From positions 26,723-90,722 of the forward strand of contig CAZGPE010000003.1 in assembly GCA_964527585.1 (NCBI GenBank): a stretch of DNA of 64,000 nt. The letters are read 5' to 3'. Under the pieces are notes generated by a model. It was not told where the DNA came from, searched no databases, and saw only the letters and a list, made by a program, of their open reading frames with translations. The translations under genes were made by a program, and so were the position numbers. Positions 7,494-62,484 of this stretch are shown here, one piece after another. Origin of the DNA: an uncultured Eubacteriales bacterium. Lineage in GTDB: Bacteria; Bacillota; Clostridia; Oscillospirales; Acutalibacteraceae. How positions within the stretch are numbered: the first letter of the stretch is position 1; the number at the start of each line of letters is the position of its first letter.

Positions 7494-8681
7494 TTATATT
7501 CCCGCTTTTTGACGGAGAATATCTTTTTTGTCGGTTAATTCCCACTTAACACCGAGTTCTTCTCTGCCGAGATGACCGTAAGAAGCGAGATTTCTGTAAA
7601 TCGGCTTTCTCAAGTCAAGATAGTCGATAATAGCGGCAGGACGAAGATCGAATGTCTCCGTTACGATTTCTTCGAGAACATCGTCGGCAAGAACGCCTGT
7701 TCCGAAGGTTTCAACCATTACCGATACGGGATGTGCAACACCGATAGCATAAGCAAGCTGAACTTCGCATTTTTTAGCAAGTCCGGCAGCAACGATGTTT
7801 TTGGCAACATATCTTGCCGCATAAGCAGCGGAACGGTCAACTTTTGTCGGGTCTTTTCCGGAGAAACATCCGCCGCCGTGTCTTCCGATTCCGCCGTATG
7901 TATCGACGATGATTTTTCTTCCGGTAAGTCCGCTGTCGCCGGCAGGGCCGCCTGTAACGAATCTACCTGTCGGATTGACATAGATTATTGTGTCGTCATC
8001 GAAAAGTTCCTGAGGAATAATCGGCTTAATAACATTTTCGAGAATATCGAGTCTGATTTGATCAAGTTCGACATCGGCGCTGTGCTGTGAAGAAATAACA
8101 ACCGTATCGACACGGATCGGAACATTGTTGTTATCGTATTCGATAGTAACCTGAGTTTTTCCGTCGGCACGAAGATAGGGGAGTGTTCCGTCTTTTCTTA
8201 CTTTTGTTAACTGCTTTGCGAGTTTATGAGCAAGCGAGATGGGAAGGGGCATAAGTTCGGGTGTTTCATCGCAAGCGTAACCGAACATCATACCTTGGTC
8301 TCCCGCACCGTGAAGATTATAGTCTTCTTTCTGACCTTCTTTTAATTCGAAAGATTTATCGACACCCAATGCAATATCGCTTGACTGCTTATCAATAAAA
8401 GTAAGCACATTGCAGGTATGACCGTTAAAGCCTTTTTCGTCGCTGTCGTATCCGATTTCGCATACAACATCTCTTGCGATTTTTTCAATGTCGATTTTAG
8501 CGGTTGTTGTAATTTCGCCCATTACGGTGATTTGGTTTGTAATACAAGTAGATTCGCAAGCAACTCTGCCGTTGGGATCCTGTTCGAGAATAGCGTCAAG
8601 TACGGCATCCGATATATTGTCGCAGATTTTGTCGGGATGGCCTTCGGTAACCGATTCCGATGTAAAAAGATGTTTTGCCAT
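7494..8681 (-). CDS. metK: S-adenosylmethionine synthetase
   Basis: [18 protein letters not shown]..., [12 protein letters not shown] and the [16 protein letters not shown] motifs are present. The start was trimmed to the ATG ending at 8681, because the upstream extension would run into the riboswitch terminator. Confidence 0.96.
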
Positions 8682-8711
8682 TTTTGGTACTCCTAAAAAA
8701 ATATTAACATA

Positions 8712-8845
8712 AAAATAAGCACCCCGAAAGGTGCTTGAAAACACCTTATCTTTCGGTTGAATAAACCGCAGGAATTAGCACCTTGCATAAGCAGGTTGCC
8801 GTGGCATCATAGGGCCTGTCCCTCCGCCACTCTCTATAAGGAGAT
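8712..8845 (-). promoter_or_regulatory. SAM-I (S-box) riboswitch with intrinsic terminator, leader of metK
   Basis: The reverse strand reads TTATAGAGAGTGGCGGAGGGACAGGCCCTATGATGCCACGGCAACC...GCAAGGTGCTAATTCCTGCGG...GAAAGATAAGG, matching the conserved S-box core. It is followed by AAGCACCTTTCGGGGTGCTTATTTTT. Confidence 0.93.
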
Positions 8846-8913: not shown

Positions 8914-9516
8914 TTACACATTTTTGCCTTTTATTACAGGTGAAAGCGGTTTGTAAATCAAAAAGCATATAACCGCATCCGCAACACCTTTTAAGAAAGT
9001 AAAAGGCAAATTGAAAATACATAAAGCCTTAACGAGAGTATCCGTTCCCGAAAGAATATCGTTATACATACCGATGATTGCTTCAAGAGGCAATCCGTAA
9101 ATCACAACATAAGCCGGATAAATAATGAAATAGTTAAGCGGAACACAGACAATCGCCATTAAAAGCGCACCGGTAACAGAACCGATAATAGCACCTTTGC
9201 GTGTTTTTTTCTTTTGGTAAACGATTCCCGCAGTAAAACAAAAAACCGCACCTAAAAAGAAATTGGAAATTTCACCGACTGCGGCGCTTGACCCGAAAGG
9301 AAGGTGAAGAATGTTTTTAATCAGTTCAACCGCAACGCTGTATACGGGCCCGATTGCAAAAGAAGTTATAAGTGCCGGTAAGTCGCTGAAATCAAGTTTC
9401 ACAAAACTCGGAATGATCGGAATCGAAATTTCAATAAATTGCAGAATGGCTGCAATCGCACTCATAATTGCCGTAACGGTAAGTTTTCTTAAATCCTGTT
9501 TTGATGCTTTTTTCAT
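8914..9516 (-). CDS. ribU: ECF transporter S-component, riboflavin-type (RibU/FmnP-like)
   Basis: 200-aa, 5-6 TM protein (LRKLTVTAIMSAIAAILQFIEI...DFSDLPALI). It lies directly behind an FMN riboswitch. Confidence 0.8.
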   Translation of the reverse strand: MKKASKQDLRKLTVTAIMSAIAAILQFIEISIPIIPSFVKLDFSDLPALITSFAIGPVYSVAVELIKNILHLPFGSSAAVGEISNFFLGAVFCFTAGIVYQKKKTRKGAIIGSVTGALLMAIVCVPLNYFIIYPAYVVIYGLPLEAIIGMYNDILSGTDTLVKALCIFNLPFTFLKGVADAVICFLIYKPLSPVIKGKNV

Positions 9517-9550: not shown

Positions 9551-9702
9551 AACCCCGAAGATAAAACTTCGAGGCGGAAAAACAGAATAATACATCTTCT
9601 TCCATCCGGACTTTAACCGTCGGTTTCGGAATTTCACCGAATCAGCAAAACGCTCGCAGACTGTACTGCCGGTGGGGAATTTCGCCCCGCCCCGAAGACA
9701 AC
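9551..9702 (-). promoter_or_regulatory. FMN (RFN) riboswitch plus terminator, leader of the ribU-like gene
   Basis: The reverse strand reads GTCTTCGGGGCGGGGCGAAATTCCCCACCGGCAGTACAGTCTGCGAGC...GATTCGGTGAAATTCCGAAACCGACGGTTAAAGTCCGGATGGAAGAAG, matching the RFN consensus. A hairpin CCTCGAAG/CTTCGGGG plus a T-run follows at 9551..9577. Confidence 0.93.
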
Positions 9703-9924
9703 TTTTTTGATTTTTTTTATTATTATATTCCCGAAATTTATATATGTCAATATAAACAAAACAAAATCTAAAACAATGTAACATATTAACAAAATTTAAT
9801 TTATATTAAAAAAACATTACAATTAAAATAAATTTATTATTATTAAGATGAAAAACAAAGTAAGAGGTGATTTAAGATGGTTTAATCGGCAGATAAATTT
9901 ATTTTATTATTATGAGGTGATATT

Positions 9925-28878: not shown

Positions 28879-29865
28879 TTATTCGGCACTGATTACGATT
28901 TCTTCGTATGTGTCCGGAATTGAAACACCGATTGCATCGGCACGGGATTTAAGATATTTTTTAGTTGTTGTCTGAGCATAAGCAATATCCATCTCTGCGG
29001 GATTTGCACCGTTTACGAGGATTTCGTATGCCATCAAACCTGCTTTATATCCTATATCGTAGTAACTGATGGAAAGAGTTGCCACACCGCATCCCTTACA
29101 AATTCCTTCTTCACCTGCGATGATCGGAACTTTTGCCGGCTCAGTAACCGAATTGATAAGTTCGGAGTTTGAAGCCGCTGTGTTATCAGTGGGAATATAA
29201 ATTGCACCGCATTCCGAAACCGCTGTTGTAGCGACCGAGAGAACATCGTTGGTATCGGTAAAAGTATATGCTTTTACTTCATATCCGAGATTTTTAAGTT
29301 CGGCTTCAACAATATCAGACTGGTATTTTGAGTTCGGTTCTGCGGAGCAGTAGAGAATACCGACTTTTTTTGCATCGGGAGCGATTTCTTTTATCATAGC
29401 GGCTTGCTCGGTAAGGGGAGCGAGGTCTGCCGTACCGGTGATATTGATACCGGTTTTTCCGTTCCAGTCTTTAATTCCCAAAGCGGTAGCATAATCTGTG
29501 ATTGATGTGCCGATTATCGGAATTGTGTCGGTTGCTTCGGCTGCGGCGGTAAGAGCACCGGTTGCGTTAGCGAGAATAAGGTCAACATCATCGCTTACAA
29601 ATTTAGAAACGATTGTTGTGCAGTTTGTAGCTTCGCCGGAAGCATTTTGCTCATCAAATTCAACTTTATCACCGAGTTTTTCGGTAAGAGCATCCTTAAA
29701 GCCTTTTGTTGCGGCATCGAGTGCATCGTGCTGAACAAGTTGGCATATACCGACTTTGTATACTTTAGCATCGCTTGAAGTGTCGTTGGTACAAGCGGTA
29801 AAGCAAGCAACAACAAGAACTGCAACAAGCAAAACGCTGATTACTGATTTCATTGTCTTTTTCAT
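28879..29865 (-). CDS. ABC transporter substrate-binding lipoprotein (ABC_sub_bind / PF04392-like)
   Basis: MKKTMKSVISVLLVAVLVVACFTAC is a lipoprotein signal with a lipobox Cys, followed by a periplasmic-binding fold (KVGICQLVQHDALD). The start was trimmed to the ATG ending at 29865. Confidence 0.85.
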   Translation of the reverse strand: MKKTMKSVISVLLVAVLVVACFTACTNDTSSDAKVYKVGICQLVQHDALDAATKGFKDALTEKLGDKVEFDEQNASGEATNCTTIVSKFVSDDVDLILANATGALTAAAEATDTIPIIGTSITDYATALGIKDWNGKTGINITGTADLAPLTEQAAMIKEIAPDAKKVGILYCSAEPNSKYQSDIVEAELKNLGYEVKAYTFTDTNDVLSVATTAVSECGAIYIPTDNTAASNSELINSVTEPAKVPIIAGEEGICKGCGVATLSISYYDIGYKAGLMAYEILVNGANPAEMDIAYAQTTTKKYLKSRADAIGVSIPDTYEEIVISAE

Positions 29866-30008
29866 AATGGTCTTTCCCTTCACGGTTTATTTGATTTAGC
29901 GATTTTAACCGCTAAAGCGTGATTTAATTATATTCATATATTCGGCGCTTGTCAATAGTTTTTTGAATAAAAATACATAAAAATGTAAATTTATTCTTTC
30001 CGTGAAAA

Positions 30009-38520: not shown

Positions 38521-38550
38521 AAGCGGACGGTTTCACCGTCCGCTTTTTTT
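38521..38550 (+). terminator. Terminator of the GH2-FTR-M16 operon
   Basis: GCGGACGG / CCGTCCGC stem followed by T7. Confidence 0.85.
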
Positions 38551-38592
38551 GAAATATAAAAAAAATCCCGCTCTTATTTAAGAACGGGATTT

Positions 38593-38679
38593 TGGTGCCG
38601 GTGGCCGGGGTCGAACCGGCACGGTATCGCTACCACTGGATTTTGAGTCCAGCACGTCTGCCAATTCCATCACACCGGC
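38593..38679 (-). tRNA. tRNA-Leu (anticodon CAA), class II with a long variable arm and encoded CCA
   Basis: The reverse strand reads GCCGGTGTGATGGAATTGGCAGACGTGCTGGACTCAAAATCCAGTGGTAGCGATACCGTGCCGGTTCGACCCCGGCCACCGGCACCA. The cloverleaf has acceptor GCCGGTG/CACCGGC, anticodon loop CTCAAAA and T-loop GGTTCGA. Confidence 0.93.
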
Positions 38680-38706
38680 AAGTGCATTGCTTTGGCAACG
38701 AAAAAT

Positions 38707-38735
38707 ATTATACACAAATGATCTGCATTTGTCAA
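38707..38735 (-). promoter_or_regulatory. Consensus promoter of tRNA-Leu
   Basis: The reverse strand reads TTGACA, a 17-nt spacer ending in TGTG, then TATAAT, about 25 nt upstream of the tRNA 5' end. A hairpin plus T-run at 38557..38592 terminates it. Confidence 0.7.
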
Positions 38736-38770: not shown

Positions 38771-38799
38771 TTGATTAAATCTATAAATAATGTTATAAT
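38771..38799 (+). promoter_or_regulatory. Promoter of the giant surface-protein gene
   Basis: TTGATT, a 17-nt spacer ending in TGT, then TATAAT (extended -10). GGAGG is at 38823. Confidence 0.65.
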
Positions 38800-38838
38800 T
38801 ACATAAATTTTGATTTCTCGGCGGAGGCCTGATATTTT

Positions 38839-41800
38839 ATGAACAGAAATTTCAAAAAAATCGAGAGTGTGGTATTAAGCGTAATACTTATAATGCTTAT
38901 GCTTACACCCGGATTCAGTGTAGTTGCCACTGATCCGACAATTACGATTACCGATGAAGACGGTGCGGAAATCACCGAGGCGGTAACCGTAAAAGAATAC
39001 GGAAATGTCAAACTCAAATATGTTCTTTCCGAAGATGTTCCCGAAGACGCAACAGTCGAATGGGAAAGTAACCTTCCTTTGCTCGCCGGAGTAGACGAAA
39101 ACGGAAAGGTAACGGGTTATGACTATTCGAAAGCCGCAATAATACAGCTTTGGCTTGACGAAGAAGTCAGACCTATTCCGATTGTCGGTCCGACTACGGC
39201 GGCTGCGATTGAAAAAGCAATTGAAAACAGTGGATATGATCTTGAAACCGTTAATACCGATTTGCTTGTTGCACTTGTTAGGGGTGTTGCCGGTGATTCG
39301 ATTGCGGACAGTCTTAAAGAATACCTTGATAATATGAATGTTGAGGTAACCGCTACCGTTTACGATGCCGACGGAAACGCTCTTTGCAGCGATACGGTTG
39401 AAATACTCGTTACACAAAGTACCGTTGCTTCCGTTGCACCGACCGGTGTTCATATTACAAACAAGAAAAAAGTTCCGCTTAAAGTCGCTTTGGGCGCAAC
39501 AGTTCAGCTTTACGGTGCCGTAACTCCCGTAAGACTTAAGCAAGGTGTTAAGTGGAGCGTTGACACAAGCATTTTTTCGGGTTCGACAAAAAATGCGACG
39601 GTTACCGATGACGGACTTGTAACTTTCACGGGTATCGGTGAAGCGAAAATTAAAGTTCAGCCCGAAAGCACGCTTTATGCCGCTTTTTCGGACAGCATAA
39701 CATTTGAAGTCGTAGATCCTTCCGAACTTCCCGTAACCGATTTTGATATTACCGGTACATTGAGTGTAAACGAAGGCGAGACAACTCAGCTTTCAATAGA
39801 AAATCTCGATCCTGCCGGTGCATACACGGGAGATATTGTTTGGACAACTTCGGATCCGTTGATTGCGGTAGTTGACGCAACAGGCCTTGTAACCGGACTT
39901 GACGGCGGTTCGATCAGTAAAAGCGTTGACATTACGGCAACACTCGGAGAGGTTACGAAAACAGTAAGCGTAACCGTTAAAAGAAGCGGAATAACCGGTT
40001 CACTCTCGGGAATTGAAATCGAGGGCGAAACCGTAATCGCAAACGATGCAACTTCACAGTATTCTTCGACTCTTTTTCCGTCCCGACTCAACAGTAATAA
40101 GTCAGTTGTAAGAGAATGGGGACTTGTCGATAAGGAAAATGCCGACAACATCGTTTGGGCAACAAGTGAAACTCCCGCAGAAATCTCAATCGCAAGTGTT
40201 GACTGCAACGGTCTTTTAACACCGAAATCAAGCGGTGTTATCACCCTTGTTGCAAAAGCGACATATAACGATTCTTCTGTTCAGACTTCGATAGAAATTA
40301 CGGCGGGAAACGCCGTTACCGATTTTACGATAACCGGTAAAACAAGTGTAACCGAAAACTCGACAATTCAGTTGAGTATCGAAAATATCGCACCGGATGA
40401 TTATGACGAGGCGTTACTTTCGACTGTTAAATGGTCAAGTGCCGATCCGTTAATAGCAAGTGTTGACGAAAACGGTGTCGTAAAAGGTCTTGATGCAGGC
40501 GGATACGGTACTTTCAACAGTTCCAAAACCACAATTTACGCAACTATAAGCGGTGTTACACGCTCTTTTGAAATAACCGTTAAAGGTGCGTTTATAAACT
40601 ATGTAACATCTGCGAGAATTGAAGGCTTTGATTATGTAATTAAAGATTTTCCCGTTCAGTATCAGGGAAAATTCACTCCGGAAAGACTTGATATAACCAC
40701 AACTCTCTGGGGCCTTCCGACCGACGAAGGCGAAGCGCCTTGGGAAGCATCAAATTCATTAAGTAAAGCCGATAACACCGAAAACAGTATTGCAAGCGTT
40801 TCTTCTTCGGGCGTTGTAACCGGTAAAACAGCAGGCGAGACAACTCTTCATCTTTTCGGAAGAAGATTGCTCACTTCTCATAACGAAACGACCAAAGATA
40901 TAACGGTAGTTGAAATTGAACCGAAAAGTATTACCGTTACTCCGCCTACGGCGACCGAATATGTCGAAGGGGACACACAGCTTGATCTTACAAATCTCAA
41001 AGTCGAACTCACTTATGACAGAGCGGACATTGAGCAGTATTACGGTGATACATCGGAACTTTATACCGATGAACAGTTAAGAGTTGAAGTAACCGATTAC
41101 ACCGTCAGCGAAATAAATCAGAAAATTCTCGATACGGAACAGTATATAGTTATTTCGGTGGTAAGAGCGGGAAAAACTTTCCGTGGCGTTTTTGCGATTA
41201 CTCTTGCTTCTAAAGATCTAACAAGCATTGAATTGACCAATCCTCAGTACAGATATTTGGAAGGTGCGACAAAACTTGATTTGAGTGAACTTAAAGTTTT
41301 GGCGAATTACAGCAATGCCGAAAGCGAATATGTAACGGATTATGATGTTGATAAGGATTTGTTTGATCCCACTCTTTATAATGAAGAACAGCAAATAACC
41401 GTCAGTTATTCCCATGCGGATAAAACCGCAACCGCAACCTTCCCCGTTATAGTTTACGGTATACCGGTTGTCAGTGTTGACGAAAACGGATATGGCGGCG
41501 AGTGGACAGATAAAGATGTTACATTTACTCTTTCTTCCACAAACGAACTCGAAGGAGTAACTTACTATTTCCGTAATTCCGAAGATGCCGATTGGATTGC
41601 GGTTTTGGATAACACGGTAACCGTTAATAAAAATGTCAATGAAACTTATTATTTCAAAGCGGTAAACAGCGCAAATGTCGAAAGCGAATCGACTAAGGGC
41701 TATGTTGTAAAAAGAGACGATGTTACACCTTCATTTACGCTCGAAAAAGAAAACGAAGCCTTAACCAATCAGTCATATAACATAAATATTAAAGATTTAA

Positions 41801-44601
41801 CTGTCGGTATATCCGGTGTTAAGTCGATTACTCTCAACGGAAGCGATATAACTTCAAATGATAGTTTTACCGTTGAAGAAAACGGAGAATATACCGTAAC
41901 GGTAACTGCGAATAACGCTTTGAGTTCAAGTGTAATCGTAAAAGTCGAGAATATTGATAAAGATGCTCCGATTGTAAATTCGGTTTCGTTTGAACATAAG
42001 GTTAAGGGCGGAATTGCGAGAATTATCAACACTTTAACTTTCGGAAAATTCTTCAATGAAGATGTTGAGGTAACTATTGACTGCGAAGATGTCGGAGTCG
42101 CCGGTATAGATAGGGTTGAATACAGACTTCTTGATGAAAACGCTCAGCCTGTCGGTGAAGGATGGAACCTTTATTCCGAATCCGATAAACCGACGGTAAC
42201 TTCGACTTTCAGAGGATATATTCAGGCAAGAGCAATTGACAAAGCGGGAAATACTTCTTCTTATCTTCGTTCCGACGGAATTGTGATTGATGCCGATATA
42301 CCTACGGATGTAACGGTCAGCGCAACCTTTAACGGCGAAGAGTATACCGACGGAAAATGGGTATCGGACAATGTTAAAATCATCCTTTCGTCAACCTCAT
42401 TTTCCGGAATTTACGAATATCTTTACCGTGTTGACGGGGGAGAATGGGAAACTGCCGAAAACGGAAAAGTAACCGCCGACCTAATAGGCGAACATAAATA
42501 TGAGTTTAAGGCTGTTTCGAATTCCGATCTTGAAAGTAATATTACGGAATTTAATGTAAAAATAGATAAACAACTTCCCGTAATCCGTGTTGATTTCAAA
42601 GGCACTTTCGGAAGATGGACGAGCGATGATGTTATCTTTACGCTTTCGACAATGGAAGAGTCGCTTTCCGGAATAACTTATTATTACACCGACGGCAGCG
42701 GAGAATGGATTGAAATTCAAACAGGCGAAGAAATTGCACTTAAAGAGAACGCAAAAGCGAATTATTCCTTTAAGGCGGTTAACGCAGCCGGAACGGAAAG
42801 TCCTCCGTCAGACGCTTATTATGTAATGATAGATAATGTCGTTCCGACCTTGGAATATACAAAATCTCAGATTTCAAATGATGAATTGTCGCTTACCGTA
42901 AATCTTACAGCTACAACAGGTGAATCCGGAATTAAAAAGATTACCGTTGACGGAAGAGATATAACCGAAGATAAATCGTTTAAGGTAACGGCTAACGGAA
43001 CTTATAATGTTAAAGTTTTTTCCAACAGCGGACTTTTCTGTGAGGAAAACATTGTAATTGACGATTTTGATACCGTTAAACCCGAAATTAACGCAGTAAC
43101 ATTCAAACAGCTTGAAGGTAATTCGGTAATAAGAGTGGTGAATTCTTCCGAATTTGCCGTATTTATGAATAATAAAACCGAAATTACCGTTGATGCCTCG
43201 GATGATAATTCAGGAATTGAAAAAATCGAGTATAGATTTGTCGGAAACGACGGAAATACCGTCGGAGACTGGACTGAATACAATAATCTTTCCAAGCCGT
43301 CAATCGAATCGTGCTTCAGCGGGAAAATCGAAGCGAGAGCAACCGATAAGGCAGGAAATATTTCTTCGGTTTATACTTCGGAAAAAATAACCGTAGATGT
43401 TTCGGCTCCGAGTAAGGTTGATATTAACGCTTATACATCGGATGGCGTTTATAACGGAGGTTATACCGATAAATCGGTTAAAATCGAACTTTCATCTACT
43501 GCATTTTCGGGCATTTATCAGTATGAATACAGAGTTGACGGCGGAGAATGGTCGGTTCTTAAATCGAATTCACTCACTGCGCTTGACGGAGTTCATACTT
43601 ATGATTTCAAATCTGTTTCTTATTCGGGACTTGAAAGTGAAATTTCTTCGCTTACCGTAAAAACAGATAAATCAAAACCGATTTTGAGCGTTACCGTAAT
43701 CGGAGAACTCGATTCTTCGAAAAACGATGAAGCGACATTTGTCCTTTCAGTGTCAAACTGTAATTCTCAAGTAACTTATTACTATAATGACGGTTCGGGA
43801 TTTAAGGCGCTTAAGACCAATATTTTGACAGTTGAACTTTGCTATGCGAGAACATATACTTTCAAAGCGGTAACTTCAGCGGGACTTCAAAGTGATGTTT
43901 CGAAAGAATATACTTGTGTAATCAGCAAAAATGCGCTTGAAAAAATAATCGAAAAAGCGGAACTTATTTCACTTACCGATGCAACCGAAACTTCGTCGGA
44001 AAATTTACTTAAAGCCGTTGCCGACGGAAAATCCGTTCTTGAAAACGATGATGCGACATCTGTGCAGGTAAGTCAGGCGATCGAAAAAATTGCCGATGCA
44101 ATTGATAAAGTAGAATTGAAAAAAATTATTACCGCTTCTCAGTCTCAAATCGTTATCGACCGCTTGCAAAACGAGGTAGCCTCATATATGATAGGTTTAA
44201 CCTTGGGTGAAAACTCAGTCGATGAAATTAAAGACAGCCTCGAAAACAAAAGTGTTCAGATAATTATCGAAAAAGACGGCAGTGTTCTTGCCGACAGTGA
44301 ACTTGTCGGAACCGGATGTGTTGTTAAATGCGTATCGTCAGCGGATCCTTCTGTTGTTTACGAAACCGCAACTGTGATTTTATACGGCGATGTTAACGGC
44401 GACGGAAAAGTTGATGAGACTGATACGGATATTCTTATGTCAAATGTTTTCGGAATGAACGGAATTGATAAAGATTCGGTTTATTTCATTGCCGGCGATT
44501 TGTCCAAAGACGGCGTAATAGATATGTTCGATTTGTTCTATGCCGACGGTATTTCATCGGGTGAGAGATGTTTCGATCAAACTAAAACGCTTTATAAATA
44601 A
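38839..44601 (+). CDS. Giant secreted non-catalytic Ig-like repeat protein with a C-terminal type I dockerin
   Basis: 1920 aa with the signal peptide MNRNFKKIESVVLSVILIMLMLTPGFSVVA. It has Big_2-like and Big_3-like domains, a duplicated roughly 370-aa supermodule and a FIVAR-like helical segment. The dockerin reads GDVNGDGKVDETDTDILMSNV...GDLSKDGVIDMFDLFYADGI. Confidence 0.9.
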   Translation: MNRNFKKIESVVLSVILIMLMLTPGFSVVATDPTITITDEDGAEITEAVTVKEYGNVKLKYVLSEDVPEDATVEWESNLPLLAGVDENGKVTGYDYSKAAIIQLWLDEEVRPIPIVGPTTAAAIEKAIENSGYDLETVNTDLLVALVRGVAGDSIADSLKEYLDNMNVEVTATVYDADGNALCSDTVEILVTQSTVASVAPTGVHITNKKKVPLKVALGATVQLYGAVTPVRLKQGVKWSVDTSIFSGSTKNATVTDDGLVTFTGIGEAKIKVQPESTLYAAFSDSITFEVVDPSELPVTDFDITGTLSVNEGETTQLSIENLDPAGAYTGDIVWTTSDPLIAVVDATGLVTGLDGGSISKSVDITATLGEVTKTVSVTVKRSGITGSLSGIEIEGETVIANDATSQYSSTLFPSRLNSNKSVVREWGLVDKENADNIVWATSETPAEISIASVDCNGLLTPKSSGVITLVAKATYNDSSVQTSIEITAGNAVTDFTITGKTSVTENSTIQLSIENIAPDDYDEALLSTVKWSSADPLIASVDENGVVKGLDAGGYGTFNSSKTTIYATISGVTRSFEITVKGAFINYVTSARIEGFDYVIKDFPVQYQGKFTPERLDITTTLWGLPTDEGEAPWEASNSLSKADNTENSIASVSSSGVVTGKTAGETTLHLFGRRLLTSHNETTKDITVVEIEPKSITVTPPTATEYVEGDTQLDLTNLKVELTYDRADIEQYYGDTSELYTDEQLRVEVTDYTVSEINQKILDTEQYIVISVVRAGKTFRGVFAITLASKDLTSIELTNPQYRYLEGATKLDLSELKVLANYSNAESEYVTDYDVDKDLFDPTLYNEEQQITVSYSHADKTATATFPVIVYGIPVVSVDENGYGGEWTDKDVTFTLSSTNELEGVTYYFRNSEDADWIAVLDNTVTVNKNVNETYYFKAVNSANVESESTKGYVVKRDDVTPSFTLEKENEALTNQSYNINIKDLTVGISGVKSITLNGSDITSNDSFTVEENGEYTVTVTANNALSSSVIVKVENIDKDAPIVNSVSFEHKVKGGIARIINTLTFGKFFNEDVEVTIDCEDVGVAGIDRVEYRLLDENAQPVGEGWNLYSESDKPTVTSTFRGYIQARAIDKAGNTSSYLRSDGIVIDADIPTDVTVSATFNGEEYTDGKWVSDNVKIILSSTSFSGIYEYLYRVDGGEWETAENGKVTADLIGEHKYEFKAVSNSDLESNITEFNVKIDKQLPVIRVDFKGTFGRWTSDDVIFTLSTMEESLSGITYYYTDGSGEWIEIQTGEEIALKENAKANYSFKAVNAAGTESPPSDAYYVMIDNVVPTLEYTKSQISNDELSLTVNLTATTGESGIKKITVDGRDITEDKSFKVTANGTYNVKVFSNSGLFCEENIVIDDFDTVKPEINAVTFKQLEGNSVIRVVNSSEFAVFMNNKTEITVDASDDNSGIEKIEYRFVGNDGNTVGDWTEYNNLSKPSIESCFSGKIEARATDKAGNISSVYTSEKITVDVSAPSKVDINAYTSDGVYNGGYTDKSVKIELSSTAFSGIYQYEYRVDGGEWSVLKSNSLTALDGVHTYDFKSVSYSGLESEISSLTVKTDKSKPILSVTVIGELDSSKNDEATFVLSVSNCNSQVTYYYNDGSGFKALKTNILTVELCYARTYTFKAVTSAGLQSDVSKEYTCVISKNALEKIIEKAELISLTDATETSSENLLKAVADGKSVLENDDATSVQVSQAIEKIADAIDKVELKKIITASQSQIVIDRLQNEVASYMIGLTLGENSVDEIKDSLENKSVQIIIEKDGSVLADSELVGTGCVVKCVSSADPSVVYETATVILYGDVNGDGKVDETDTDILMSNVFGMNGIDKDSVYFIAGDLSKDGVIDMFDLFYADGISSGERCFDQTKTLYK
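41466..43928 (+). repeat. Protein-level tandem duplication inside the giant gene: supermodule copy 1 (41466..42590), copy 2 (42591..43692) and a partial third copy (43693..43928)
   Basis: Collinear similarity is visible, e.g. GEWTDKDVTFTLSS/GRWTSDDVIFTLST, GISGVKSITLNGSDIT/GESGIKKITVDGRDIT, GIDRVEYRLLDENAQPVGEGW/GIEKIEYRFVGNDGNTVGDW, ARAIDKAGNTSS/ARATDKAGNISS and YRVDGGEWE/YRVDGGEWS. Confidence 0.85.
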
Positions 44602-44616
44602 ACATACAGGCAAAAT

Positions 44617-44648
44617 AAAACTCTGACTTTAACAAGTCAGAGTTTTTT
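44617..44648. terminator. Bidirectional terminator (giant gene / ligA)
   Basis: AAAACTCTGACTT / AAGTCAGAGTTTT perfect 13-bp stem with a TAAC loop. Confidence 0.9.
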
Positions 44649-44653
44649 ATTTG

Positions 44654-46678
<2,025 letters not shown>

Positions 46679-46762
46679 TTATTAAGAATATTATACCATA
46701 AAATATCATTTTTACAATGCGAAAGCTCATACATATTTAATAAGAAAATGCGGAGGTGTGAT

Positions 46763-47914
46763 ATGAAAAAAATATGCAGTGTTATGTTATCTGCTCTTTT
46801 CCTTTTCTGTTTGCTGAATTTGAATGTTACCGCACAAACACAGCAAATGCAGGTGGAAGTTAAAGCAAAATCGGCGGTTTTGATGGAAGCGACAACGGGG
46901 GAAGTGCTTATGAGTATGAATGAGCACGAAAAAGTTTATCCCGCATCCGTAACGAAAATTATGTCGCTTTTGCTGATAACCGAAGCGATTGATCAGGGAA
47001 AGATCGCATTAACCGATGTTGTTACCGCTTCAAAAGAAGCTTCGCAAAAAGGCGGATCTCAGATATGGCTTAAAGAAGGAGAACAGATGACCGTCGACGA
47101 TTTGCTTAAAGCAACCGCTGTGGCAAGCGCCAATGATGCCTGTACTGCGTTGGGAGAATTTGTGGCGGGCAGTGAAACGGCTTTTGTAAAAATGATGAAT
47201 GACAGGGCAAAAGAACTCGGAATGAACGATACTGTTTTTGAAAACTGTACCGGTCTTGACGATACGGCTGAAAATCATACAACAAGCGCTTATGATGTTG
47301 CGTTAATGTCCGCAGAATTGATTAAACACGACAGAATACGCAACTATACTACAATCTGGATGGATACTTTGAGAGGTGGAGAAACTCAACTGGTTAATAC
47401 CAATAAACTTATCCGCTTTTATGAAGGCGCAACGGGACTGAAAACGGGAACAACATCAAAAGCAGGCTGCTGTGTAAGTGCAACTGCTCAAAGAGACGGA
47501 ATTTCTTTGATTGCGGTTGTAATGGGAAGCGAATCGAGTAATGACAGATTTGACGGTGCAAAAGCCATGCTTGATTGGGGATTTGCGAATTATTCCGCTG
47601 TTGAATTAAGCGTTGATCCTTCGTTGATTGCCGATGTAACGGTTATAGGAGGCGATGTTGAAAAAATTACTCCGGTTGCGCAAAATACATTTACCGCAAT
47701 TGTGAAAAAAGGCTGTGAAGATAAAATTACCGTTAAGACCGATTTGGCTCTCGATGTTCAGGCACCTGTAGAAAACAATCAGGTTCTCGGAACGGTCGAA
47801 TTCTTTTCCGACGGAAAATCAATCGGAAAAATAAATCTTTGCAGTCAACGGGAAATAGAAAAAATGAATTTTATTGATTATTTGAGCCGTTTTATGCTTT
47901 GCTTATGTACTTGA
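46763..47914 (+). CDS. D-alanyl-D-alanine carboxypeptidase (S11, PBP5/DacF-like)
   Basis: ATG at 46763 sits behind GGAGGTG. It has a signal peptide and the SxxK (ASVTKIM), SxN (SAND) and KTG (KTGTT) motifs. The ORF-track N-terminal extension overlaps ligA and is rejected. Confidence 0.9.
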   Translation: MKKICSVMLSALFLFCLLNLNVTAQTQQMQVEVKAKSAVLMEATTGEVLMSMNEHEKVYPASVTKIMSLLLITEAIDQGKIALTDVVTASKEASQKGGSQIWLKEGEQMTVDDLLKATAVASANDACTALGEFVAGSETAFVKMMNDRAKELGMNDTVFENCTGLDDTAENHTTSAYDVALMSAELIKHDRIRNYTTIWMDTLRGGETQLVNTNKLIRFYEGATGLKTGTTSKAGCCVSATAQRDGISLIAVVMGSESSNDRFDGAKAMLDWGFANYSAVELSVDPSLIADVTVIGGDVEKITPVAQNTFTAIVKKGCEDKITVKTDLALDVQAPVENNQVLGTVEFFSDGKSIGKINLCSQREIEKMNFIDYLSRFMLCLCT

Positions 47915-61255: not shown

Positions 61256-61266
61256 CGGTGAATATT

Positions 61267-62484
61267 ATGAAAGATAAAAAAAGAAAAACAAAAAAGAAAA
61301 ACAAAAAAACGCTCGCTCACGATAAGTTTGTTAATGTGATAAAGGCTGTATGTATAATTCTTGTTGTGCTTGTTCTTTTATTTGTTGCGGCAGACAGATT
61401 CGGAAACATAACTTTTTCAAGTGTCGGTGATTATTTCGGAACTTTGGTATCGGGAGCGAAAAGCGGTGAAGGGTATCCGTATTATTTTGAATCCTCAAGC
61501 GCCGAAAGTGTAAAGAAGATAAATTCAGATTTGTTTGTGCTTACCGACAGTACAACATTTGTGCTTGACTCAACGGCAAAAAAATTCGGGGAAACTCAGC
61601 ATTCATATTCCCAGCCGCTTGTTTTAACTTCAAACGGAAGAGCGGTAATGTGTGATGTAGGCGGAACTTCTTACTGCGTTTTTTCAAAAACAAAAAAACT
61701 CTATGACAGCAATGCCGATCAGAAGATAATAACCGCTTCAATCGGTAAAGACGGAAGTGTTGCGATTGCAACCCGTGGAGATAATTCAATGTCGGAACTG
61801 ACCGTTTACAATAAGAACCGAAAAGAAGTCTTTAAGTGGGAATGTGCTAAAGAAAACATTATAGCGGTTGATGTTTCGGATAACGGAAACAAAGCCGTTG
61901 TTTCGGTAGTAGGTGCCGAAAACGGAGAACTTTATTATAAAGTAATAATCTTTGATTTCAGATACAGTGAAAAAATTTCCGAATATTCTTTCGGCTCGAA
62001 ATCGGTTTCCGCAGTTAATTTTATCGGTTCGAACAAGATTTTGGTTACGGGAAAAGAAGTTTTCAGCGTTATAGGAAAAAAAGATAAATATGACGAAGAT
62101 CTTTCGTTGAATACATTGTCAAGAGTATATACATCGGATAACAATATAACCGTTGCGGTTTTTTCTAAGTACGGAAGTTCCACTTCTAAGATAATTAAAG
62201 TTTATTCCGCAACTGCAAAAGAACTTTTTACCGTTGAACTTGACTCCGGTGTGCGCAGTGTTTCGTGCGATTCCGGATATGTATCGGTTCTTACCGACAG
62301 ACAGCTTCTCAATTATACCGTAAGGGGAAAACAGGTCGGTACTTACAATATATCAAGCGACGGCGTTTCATGTTTTTCGGACGGCGGTAACACTTATGTG
62401 CTTACGACAAGTTCGGTAGTGGCTTATAAAACTGTCGGAAGTAATTTATCGAACGCCGAAGAAACAACGCTTTTACAGGAATAA
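61267..62484 (+). CDS. Membrane-anchored hypothetical protein (polybasic N-terminus, 1 TM helix, beta-rich ectodomain; DUF5711-like)
   Basis: MKDKKRKTKKKNKKT, then the TM helix VIKAVCIILVVLVLLFVAA, then about 340 aa of beta-strand-rich repeats. GGTGA lies 5 nt before the ATG at 61267. Confidence 0.7.
   Translation: MKDKKRKTKKKNKKTLAHDKFVNVIKAVCIILVVLVLLFVAADRFGNITFSSVGDYFGTLVSGAKSGEGYPYYFESSSAESVKKINSDLFVLTDSTTFVLDSTAKKFGETQHSYSQPLVLTSNGRAVMCDVGGTSYCVFSKTKKLYDSNADQKIITASIGKDGSVAIATRGDNSMSELTVYNKNRKEVFKWECAKENIIAVDVSDNGNKAVVSVVGAENGELYYKVIIFDFRYSEKISEYSFGSKSVSAVNFIGSNKILVTGKEVFSVIGKKDKYDEDLSLNTLSRVYTSDNNITVAVFSKYGSSTSKIIKVYSATAKELFTVELDSGVRSVSCDSGYVSVLTDRQLLNYTVRGKQVGTYNISSDGVSCFSDGGNTYVLTTSSVVAYKTVGSNLSNAEETTLLQE

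What the first reader, a model, noticed from the sequence alone, without database searches (positions are those of the whole stretch)
38839..44601. Monocistronic 1920-aa non-catalytic, dockerin-tipped array of Ig-like modules
Seen in the sequence:
- A Sec signal peptide, followed by an unassigned roughly 190-aa N-terminal region.
- At least 5 Big_2-like domains and 2 Big_3-like domains (ITVTPPTATEYVEGDTQLDLTNLKVELTY; IELTNPQYRYLEGATKLDLSELKVLANY).
- A duplicated roughly 370-aa supermodule built from four unassigned beta-sandwich-like units.
- A FIVAR-like helical segment, a small beta domain and a C-terminal type I dockerin.
- No hydrolase, lyase, CBM or protease signature that I can recognise.
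- Its own near-consensus extended -10 promoter (38771..38799) and a strong bidirectional terminator. It sits next to a self-contained tRNA-Leu unit.

From established knowledge, a dockerin implies non-covalent display on a cohesin-bearing scaffoldin (cellulosome or amylosome).

My inference is that the cargo here is a long stalk of binding-type modules. That would make it a scaffoldin-displayed adhesin or substrate/host-surface binding fibre rather than an enzyme. The four unassigned module types could be new domain families.
Basis: partly seen in the sequence, partly recalled or inferred. Interest (0 to 1): 0.72.

Follow-up and report, generated by a model that had tools for sequence, protein, structure and literature searches.

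The report
Dockerin-tipped Ig-domain surface fibre protein
This gene encodes a 1,920-residue secreted chain of about 19 immunoglobulin-like domains with no enzyme fold and a C-terminal dockerin; relatives carry the same head on other cell-surface anchors, so it is most likely a cell-surface fibre or adhesin of an uncultured gut Clostridia bacterium, a new member of a known kind of protein.

Summary
ORF 38839..44601 (+) is a real, stand-alone gene for a 1,920-aa secreted protein.

Head (M1-M8): six Big_2-type modules, the first with a four-helix insertion, then two Big_3-type modules. Stalk: a ~370-aa four-unit supermodule (A-B-C-D) present twice, plus an extra A unit. C-terminus: a three-helix FIVAR-like segment, a small beta module (X) and a type I dockerin.

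Two AlphaFold2 models (aa 31-880 and 1240-1920; pLDDT 86 and 85) are all-beta apart from those helical parts. Foldseek returns only tandem Ig arrays (NUP210, S-layer proteins, GhpA, SiiE). No catalytic fold was found; aa 881-1239 was covered by sequence evidence only.

New here: 156 retrieved homologues from gut metagenomes keep the same eight-module head, vary the supermodule number from 2 to about 5, and swap the C-terminal anchor between X-dockerin, sortase-type signals, DUF5648 and InlB B-repeat modules. That argues for a surface-displayed fibre with a functional distal head.

The supermodule units are not new families: C and D match NCBIfam's OmpL47-type domain, and A and D are one type. 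A cohesin partner could not be tested (only 64 kb available) and the ligand is unknown. Verdict: new member of a known kind; modest interest.

The parts
38771..38799 (+). Promoter-like site TTGATT-17 nt-TATAAT with TG one base upstream of the -10 (extended -10)
   Evidence: 10 of 12 matches, TG yes; consensus match only
38823..38827 (+). GGAGG ribosome-binding site, 11 nt before the ATG
   Evidence: read directly from the sequence
38839..44601 (+). ORF of 1920 aa including the stop codon
   Evidence: 363 homologues with E<=1e-5
38839..38928 (+). Sec-type signal peptide (aa 1-30), probable cleavage after VVA
   Evidence: hydrophobicity; conserved in family consensus; no dedicated predictor run
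38929..39423 (+). M1 tip module (aa 31-195): Big_2-type beta-sandwich interrupted by a four-helix insertion (aa 98-164, nt 39130-39330)
   Evidence: Big_2 17.1 bits sub-threshold; hhalign M1~M3 99%; AF2 strands-four helices-strands, pLDDT 80-92; always N-terminal in about 40 clusters of giant proteins
39424..39723 (+). M2 (aa 196-295), Big_2-like
   Evidence: Big_2 14.6 bits sub-threshold; all-beta in AF2; hhalign to M3/M4 88-90%
39724..39987 (+). M3 (aa 296-383), canonical Big_2
   Evidence: best Big_2 stretch aa 299-380; paralogue of M5
39988..40314 (+). M4 (aa 384-492), long Big_2-related module; most variable head module
   Evidence: no Pfam hit; hhalign M4~M6 99.9%, M3~M4 94%; mean identity 45%
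40315..40590 (+). M5 (aa 493-584), canonical Big_2
   Evidence: family profile hits LigB-like Big_2 structure 2mh4
40591..40914 (+). M6 (aa 585-692), long Big_2-related module, paralogue of M4
   Evidence: Big_2 16 bits sub-threshold; hhalign
40915..41208 (+). M7 (aa 693-790), Big_3-like, paralogue of M8
   Evidence: self-BLAST 31% identity; hhalign 100%; no Pfam hit of its own
41209..41460 (+). M8 (aa 791-874), Big_3
   Evidence: PF07523 22.6 bits vs cutoff 21.2
41461..42573 (+). Supermodule copy 1 (aa 875-1245): units A 875-960, B 961-1046, C 1047-1165, D 1166-1245
   Evidence: self-similarity; NF047446 hits to C 26.6, D 23.1, B 16.7 bits; A~D 100%, B~D 91%, A~B 86%, C~D 58%; not itself modelled
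42574..43677 (+). Supermodule copy 2 (aa 1246-1613): A2, B2, C2, D2
   Evidence: 34-47% identical to copy 1; all-beta in AF2; Foldseek best matches GhpA and SiiE
43678..43923 (+). Extra A-type unit A3 (aa 1614-1695)
43924..44136 (+). FIVAR-like three-helix segment (aa 1696-1766)
   Evidence: PF07554 22 bits, below cutoff 29.2; three helices aa 1698-1766; PF07554 precomputed on homologues P0002, P0003
44152..44376 (+). X module (aa 1772-1846): small beta domain with one helix, running directly into the dockerin
   Evidence: AF2; occurs only with a dockerin (119 of 119) at fixed spacing; no family hit
44377..44598 (+). Type I dockerin (aa 1847-1920), Ca loops DVNGDGKVDETD (1850-1861) and DLSKDGVIDMFD (1887-1898), plus a conserved ~20-aa tail
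   Evidence: PF00404 28.2 bits vs cutoff 22.9; aligned to 5lxv_B, 2yik, 1daq; profile hits >20 solved dockerins; invariant G/D columns
44617..44646 (.). 13-bp hairpin with T-runs on both strands; terminator-like site shared with convergent ligA

Best explanation
The gene encodes a long, non-enzymatic cell-surface fibre. The protein is exported by the Sec pathway. Its C-terminal X-dockerin dyad is inferred to bind, with calcium, a cohesin on a cell-bound scaffoldin. About 19 Ig-like domains then form an extended chain (roughly 70-80 nm at ~4 nm per domain, my estimate). The twice-repeated A-B-C-D supermodule acts as the stalk. The invariant eight-module head (M1-M8) sits at the distal end as the working part, with M1 (a Big_2 fold with a four-helix insertion) as the tip; it most likely binds a ligand on food particles, host mucus or other cells. 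Shown: the architecture, the absence of a catalytic fold in the modelled regions, the dockerin, and family-wide anchor swapping and stalk-length variation. Inferred: cohesin binding, the extended shape, ligand binding by the head.
For: Architecture and fold: Pfam/NCBIfam hits; AF2 models with pLDDT 86.1 and 84.9; Foldseek returns only tandem Ig arrays, including S-layer proteins, the GhpA filament and the SiiE giant adhesin. Dockerin; Ca-loop residues invariant across 23 homologues. Comparative: all 18 representative homologues checked keep M1-M8 in the same order, while complete A-B-C-D sets run from 2 (dockerin forms) to about 5 in forms up to 3242 aa. C-terminal anchor by motif classification of 156 retrieved, highly redundant sequences: dockerin 124; PxT[GE]-type motif plus hydrophobic segment plus K-rich tail 12; hydrophobic segment plus K-rich tail only 5; InlB B-repeat type 8 (plus P0037 on inspection); DUF5648 3. 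Pfam confirmed DUF5648 (176 bits), Flg_new_2 (42 bits) and two more dockerin forms. At species level the head is better conserved (67-91%) than B2, C2, FIVAR and X (38-52%). M1-type domains always sit directly after the signal peptide in a wider set of giant proteins. Context: stand-alone gene, in the same place next to ligA in a sister species at 66% identity. Precedent: R. flavefaciens CttA, a non-catalytic binding protein attached by an XDoc dyad to the sortase-anchored ScaE cohesin (PMC5301203).
Against: No cohesin was found: the window holds no other large secreted protein and the rest of the genome could not be searched. No ligand-binding site or CBM-like signature was identified; Ig-like folds say nothing about specificity. 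The dockerin falls just below the Pfam cutoff in the whole-protein scan (21.6 vs 22.9 bits). Similarity to S-layer proteins would fit a purely structural coat equally well. No expression or proteomic data. Sortase-type motifs in homologues were read by pattern only. aa 881-1239 was not modelled.
Confidence: 0.6

Rival explanations
1. It is a substrate-targeting component of a cellulosome- or amylosome-like complex: the Ig-like head modules act as unrecognised carbohydrate-binding modules that tether the cell or complex to dietary polysaccharide, like Sas6/Sas20 in R. bromii or CttA in R. flavefaciens. This is a sub-case of the best explanation with a specific ligand class.
For: Dockerin present. 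A GH2 gene lies 3.4 kb upstream. Non-catalytic dockerin proteins that bind substrate are established: Sas20 (PMC9112005), CttA (PMC5301203). A large share of the R. bromii amylosome is dockerin proteins of unknown function (PMC12663171).
Against: No CBM family hit. Neighbours are housekeeping genes, not a polysaccharide-utilisation or sca-type cluster. Sortase-anchored homologues show the fibre does not need a multi-enzyme complex. The organism is not identified as a starch or fibre degrader.
Confidence: 0.2
2. It is a structural surface-coat or spacer protein that forms a fibrillar layer structuring the cell envelope, without a specific ligand.
For: Several top Foldseek matches for the head are S-layer assembly domains: Sap, EA1, SbsB, SbsC. 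Rincon et al. proposed that some dockerin proteins of unknown function may structure the cell surface (PMC2930009). The family is abundant in gut metagenomes, e.g. one 90% cluster has 753 members.
Against: The head is invariant in order and better conserved than the stalk, and a specialised tip domain is always N-terminal; both fit a distal functional head better than a uniform coat. No self-assembly evidence.
Confidence: 0.12
3. The dockerin does not engage a cohesin: the organism lacks cohesins and the module serves another role (Ca-dependent stabilisation or binding to something else), so the protein is released or attached in another way.
For: No cohesin seen in the window. The dockerin is marginal in the whole-protein Pfam scan. 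From general knowledge, dockerin-like modules occur in organisms without recognisable cohesins.
Against: Ca-loop residues are invariant across diverged homologues. The dockerin occupies exactly the position that proven cell-surface anchors (sortase-type signals) occupy in homologues. X and dockerin travel as a fixed dyad, as in known cohesin-binding XDocs (PMC5301203). Ruminococcal cohesins often escape sequence searches (PMC13463774).
Confidence: 0.06
4. It is a cryptic enzyme with a catalytic domain hidden among the unassigned modules.
For: None found. aa 881-1239 was not modelled.
Against: Every unit is 80-165 aa; models are all-beta sandwiches plus short helical parts; Foldseek gives no enzyme fold among the top 50 matches of either model; no catalytic family in Pfam or NCBIfam; the unmodelled stretch is a paralogue of the modelled copy 2.
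Confidence: 0.02

Closest known systems
Ruminococcus flavefaciens CttA (X-dockerin protein bound to the sortase-anchored ScaE cohesin; PMC5301203)
   Same: Secreted, non-catalytic, binding-type cargo; C-terminal X module plus dockerin dyad; proposed role in cell adhesion and substrate targeting at the cell surface.
   Different: CttA is much shorter, carries two putative CBMs and is encoded in the sca cluster. Here the cargo is ~19 Ig-like modules, the gene stands alone among housekeeping genes, no sequence similarity of the X modules was shown, and the cohesin partner is unknown.
Dockerin proteins with Ig-like, LRR or unknown cargo in ruminococci (PMC2930009; PDB 5k39 'Ig domain protein group 2 domain protein' dockerin)
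   Same: Signal peptide, non-enzymatic cargo, C-terminal dockerin; Big_2 plus dockerin combination has a solved precedent.
   Different: Those are from R. flavefaciens; no homology beyond the generic domains was shown. This family has a fixed eight-module head and a variable supermodule stalk.
Gram-positive sortase-anchored fibre adhesins and Periscope proteins (PMC8201768, PMC9704523)
   Same: Distal N-terminal functional region, repeat stalk of variable length, C-terminal cell-surface anchor; long homologues of this family carry sortase-type signals.
   Different: This protein has no LPXTG signal. Its repeats are old and divergent (34-47% identity, no DNA tandem repeat), so length varies between lineages rather than by rapid slippage.
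Leptospira OmpL47 and other proteins with the OmpL47-type domain (NCBIfam NF047446/NF047441)
   Same: Units C and D (weakly B) match the domain model; whole protein 69.8 bits vs cutoff 40.
   Different: Far below the OmpL47 equivalog cutoff (47.4 vs 250 bits), so it shares a domain type only. Different organism, envelope and architecture.
Giant Ig-array filaments and adhesins: Aureispira GhpA, Salmonella SiiE (Foldseek)
   Same: Best structural matches of the supermodule region; extended tandem beta-sandwich arrays on cell surfaces.
   Different: 13-16% sequence identity, low TM-scores (0.17-0.44), Gram-negative secretion systems; similarity is at the level of fold and arrangement only.

Membership tests
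Dockerin type I (Pfam PF00404) | Profile match above the curated cutoff | tested here: met
   28.2 bits vs 22.9 when the C-terminal 160 aa are scanned alone; 21.6 bits, just below, in the whole-protein scan; family profile hits >20 solved dockerins
Dockerin type I (Pfam PF00404) | Two Ca-binding loop-helix repeats | tested here: met
   DVNGDGKVDETD and DLSKDGVIDMFD both align to solved dockerins; three helices predicted at aa 1860-1907; loop residues invariant in 23 homologues
Dockerin type I (Pfam PF00404) | Ca-dependent binding to a cohesin | not testable with these tools
   needs recombinant protein and a cohesin panel
Cellulosome/amylosome component | Cohesin-bearing scaffoldin encoded in the same genome | not testable with these tools
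   only 64 kb available; no other large secreted protein in the window; source contig not retrievable
Cellulosome/amylosome component | Association with polysaccharide-degrading enzymes or a sca-type cluster | tested here: not met
   neighbours are housekeeping genes in the window and in three related loci; one GH2 gene 3.4 kb upstream without dockerin hit
X-dockerin (XDoc) dyad | A module immediately upstream of the dockerin that always accompanies it | tested here: met
   X found only with a dockerin, 119 of 119, fixed spacing in 113
X-dockerin (XDoc) dyad | Homology or structural buttressing as in CipA/CttA X modules | not tested
Big_2 (PF02368) | Profile match above the curated cutoff | tested here: met
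   60.8 bits, 3 stretches; M1, M2, M6 sub-threshold; M4 only by hhalign
Big_3 (PF07523) | Profile match above the curated cutoff | tested here: met
   M8 22.6 vs 21.2 bits; M7 only as paralogue of M8
FIVAR (PF07554) | Profile match above the curated cutoff | tested here: not met
   22 bits vs 29.2; a three-helix segment is predicted, so 'FIVAR-like' only
OmpL47-type beta-barrel domain (NCBIfam NF047446) | Profile match above the curated cutoff | tested here: met
   69.8 bits vs 40, 5 stretches, for the whole protein; single units 16.7-26.6 bits
Leptospira OmpL47 protein (NF047441 equivalog) | Equivalog score cutoff | tested here: not met
   47.4 bits vs 250
Sortase-anchored (LPXTG) surface protein | C-terminal LPXTG-type motif, hydrophobic segment, basic tail | tested here: not met
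   absent in this protein; present by pattern in 12 homologues
Periscope proteins | Near-identical DNA tandem repeats giving strain-level length variation | tested here: not met
   no tandem repeat at DNA level; copies 34-47% identical; close relatives all 1920-1926 aa

The most novel reading that the evidence does not exclude
The invariant eight-module head, capped by a Big_2 domain with a four-helix insertion, is a new ligand-binding unit of a widespread family of gut Clostridia fibre adhesins. The same fibre is mounted interchangeably by cohesin-dockerin, sortase or other anchors, which would show that in these bacteria the cohesin-dockerin system serves mainly to display adhesins rather than enzymes.
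Probability: 0.25. Interest if true: 0.55.

Novelty: new member of a known kind. Interest (0 to 1): 0.36.

Why it matters
Dockerin proteins with non-enzymatic cargo are common in ruminococci and relatives, but almost none has a known role. This family is abundant in gut metagenomes and gives a clean natural experiment: one conserved head and stalk on several different cell-surface anchors. That supports the idea that dockerins can serve as a general surface-display device, and it points to the head (aa 31-874), and M1 in particular, as the piece to express and test for binding. For annotation, it shows that the 'unassigned' repeats are OmpL47-type and Big_2-type Ig-like modules, not new folds.

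Tried and rejected
Hidden enzyme: rejected. New domain families for the four supermodule units: rejected for C and D (NF047446) and for A (same type as D); B is related at 86-91% hhalign probability. Note that the unit alignments used partly contain each other's copies, so the ~100% values for A~D, M3~M5, M4~M6 and M7~M8 are partly circular; the underlying cross-hits are independent.

Recent repeat expansion or Periscope-type variation: rejected.

Identifying the organism: the protein itself and the 100%-identical ligA product are not on record in the contig index; the genome-contig scan found only 58-59% relatives in unnamed MAGs; named relatives of ligA are only 'Clostridia/Ruminococcaceae/Oscillospiraceae bacterium'.

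Link to R. bromii amylosome proteins: searched three papers; no matching protein described, and I could not establish which species carries the 1867-aa homologues. Limousia mucinolysome paper and Fimenecus literature gave nothing relevant.

Cohesin search: not possible beyond the window; neighbours in related loci carry no cohesin annotation.

PDB sequence search finds only the dockerin and Big_2 parts. The first self-BLAST attempts failed for technical reasons. A terminator after the upstream peptidase gene (GCGGACGG-TTTCA-CCGTCCGC-T7, ~38523-38550) is visible but was not listed by the scan.
Full report
Observation. ORF 38839..44601 (+) encodes 1,920 aa. It starts 11 nt after a GGAGG, follows a promoter-like TTGATT-17-TATAAT with an upstream TG at 38771..38799, and ends 15 nt before a 13-bp hairpin at 44617..44646 that reads as a terminator on both strands. 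The upstream neighbour is tRNA-Leu(CAA) on the minus strand (38593..38679) with its own perfect promoter match and terminator. The downstream neighbour is a convergent ligA. The gene is therefore a single-gene unit by geometry. Other neighbours are housekeeping genes: GH2, M16C peptidase, PBP5-type carboxypeptidase, PGI.

Architecture. Self-comparison, Pfam, NCBIfam and profile-profile comparison give: signal peptide (1-30); M1 (31-195); M2 (196-295); M3 (296-383); M4 (384-492); M5 (493-584); M6 (585-692); M7 (693-790); M8 (791-874); supermodule A-B-C-D (875-1245) and again (1246-1613); an extra A unit (1614-1695); a FIVAR-like segment (1696-1766); module X (1772-1846); dockerin (1847-1920). 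M3 and M5 are canonical Big_2; M1, M2 and M6 are sub-threshold Big_2; M4 pairs with M6. M3-M4 and M5-M6 are a duplicated di-domain. M8 passes Big_3 and M7 is its paralogue. C and D, and weakly B, match the OmpL47-type domain NF047446 (69.8 bits vs 40 for the whole protein). A and D are one type.

Structure. AF2 on aa 31-880 with 39 aligned sequences gave mean pLDDT 86.1. Every module is all-beta except M1, which reads strands (aa 35-93), four helices (aa 98-164), strands (aa 168-192). AF2 on aa 1240-1920 with 23 sequences gave pLDDT 84.9: five beta units, three helices (1698-1766), a small beta module with one helix (1772-1846) and the dockerin helices (1860-1907). Foldseek against the PDB returned only tandem Ig-like arrays: NUP210, B. 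anthracis Sap and EA1, SbsB/SbsC, contactins, titin and cadherins for the head; Aureispira GhpA fragments, SiiE and MDGA1 for the C-terminal part. No enzyme fold appeared. aa 881-1239 was not modelled; it is the paralogue of the modelled second copy.

Dockerin. The C-terminal 160 aa score 28.2 bits on PF00404 (cutoff 22.9). Both Ca loops align to R. flavefaciens and C. thermocellum dockerin structures. A family profile hits more than 20 solved dockerins. Loop glycines and aspartates are invariant in 23 homologues.

Family. A search of 5.8 billion proteins gave 363 homologues, nearly all unnamed metagenome or MAG proteins. The nearest is 97% identical; sister-species forms of 1920-1926 aa are 66-69% identical; a large set of 1867-aa forms is 48% identical. 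In all 18 representatives checked the head M1-M8 is complete and in the same order. The stalk varies from two A-B-C-D sets in dockerin forms to about five in forms of 2,400-3,240 aa. The C-terminus varies: dockerin in 124 of 156 retrieved (redundant) sequences, a PxT[GE]-type motif plus hydrophobic segment plus K-rich tail in 12, hydrophobic segment plus K-rich tail in 5, InlB B-repeat type in 8-9, DUF5648 in 3. X occurs only with a dockerin, 119 of 119, at fixed spacing. In a sister species the gene sits in the same place next to ligA; in more distant relatives the context differs, and none shows a cohesin or sortase neighbour.

Conservation. Across 30 representatives head modules average ~60% identity, with M4 (45%) and M6 (51%) lowest. 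Against sister species the head is 67-91% identical, the second supermodule's B2 and C2 47-52%, and FIVAR and X 38-49%. The supermodule duplication is old: there is no DNA tandem repeat, and copy 2 matches copy 2 of orthologues (39-59%) better than copy 1 (36-38%).

Tip domain. A search of 1.84 billion representative proteins with M1 alone gave 593 hits at E<=1e-3, 102 at <=1e-10 and 15 at <=1e-30. Hits covering all of M1, including the helical insertion, lie at residues ~30-230 of long proteins, directly after the signal peptide. These include other architectures built from Big_2 plus FIVAR-like helices, some with an X-Doc-like C-terminus. M1 is thus a conserved N-terminal cap of a broader class of giant surface proteins.

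Organism. The ligA product is 100% identical to an unnamed NCBI protein on a 106,671-bp contig; named relatives are only 'Clostridia/Ruminococcaceae/Oscillospiraceae bacterium' MAGs. One 48% homologue is annotated 'Ig-like domain-containing protein' of Candidatus Fimenecus stercoravium.

Interpretation. A conserved distal head, a variable-length repeat stalk and interchangeable cell-surface anchors are the logic of Gram-positive fibre adhesins; here one of the anchors is a cohesin-dockerin link. The closest functional precedent is R. flavefaciens CttA, held on the sortase-anchored ScaE cohesin by an X-Doc dyad (PMC5301203). Dockerin proteins with unknown, LRR or Ig-type cargo are numerous in ruminococci (PMC2930009; PDB 5k39). 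Unlike Periscope proteins (PMC8201768), the repeats are divergent, so length varies between lineages, not by slippage.

Limits. No cohesin could be sought outside the window, which has no other large secreted protein. Ruminococcal cohesins often escape sequence searches (PMC13463774), so a negative Pfam result would not have been decisive. Ligand, expression and localisation are unknown.

Verdict. This is a new member of a known kind, of modest interest (0.36).

Noticed in passing
window 9590-9703 (-): FMN riboswitch (113 bits) upstream of a 200-aa, 5-TM ORF at 8914..9516 (-), presumably a riboflavin transporter.
   Followed up: no
window 8743-8842 (-) and ORF 7494..8744 (-): SAM riboswitch (88.5 bits) in front of an ORF with a MetK-like N-terminal motif ([21 protein letters not shown]). 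The listed GTG start overlaps the riboswitch, so the real start is probably the internal ATG about 21 codons downstream.
   Followed up: no
window 38562-38735 (-): Stand-alone tRNA-Leu(CAA) with a perfect TTGACA-17-TATAAT promoter match and its own 14-bp hairpin terminator, divergent from the fibre gene.
   Followed up: partly
window 46577..47914 (+): The PBP5/S11 carboxypeptidase ORF (445 aa) overlaps the 5' end of ligA by 63 nt; the orthologue in L006 is called at 384 aa, so the true start is probably internal.
   Followed up: partly
proteins P0290, P0294, P0296, P0298, P0304, P0308, P0314, P0319: The M1-type tip domain heads a wider class of 1,800-2,900-aa proteins built from Big_2 plus FIVAR-like helical repeats, with a second large helical insertion in the M2-equivalent module; some end in an X-Doc-like 'GTG...Y.LV.FGDVNGDG' dyad.
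   Followed up: partly
protein P0029 (homologue, 2063 aa): Carries two dockerins in tandem after the X module (PF00404 51.6 bits, 2 stretches).
   Followed up: no
window 44539-44598 (aa 1901-1920): A ~20-residue tail after the dockerin (FDQTKTLYK) is conserved in close homologues (FDQTQTLYK) and in related form (LDQTVDFYK) in 48% homologues. Role unknown.
   Followed up: no
window 61258..62484 (+): Membrane-anchored 408-aa DUF5711 protein (110 bits); apart from an ABC substrate-binding lipoprotein at 28879..29883 it is the only other ORF in the window with an N-terminal anchor and a large extracytoplasmic part.
   Followed up: partly
L003 15624-16932: In the locus of the 48% homologue P0086 the fibre gene is followed after 20 nt by a 175-aa ORF with no family hit and a CmpB-like protein on the same strand, so that homologue may not be monocistronic.
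   Followed up: no
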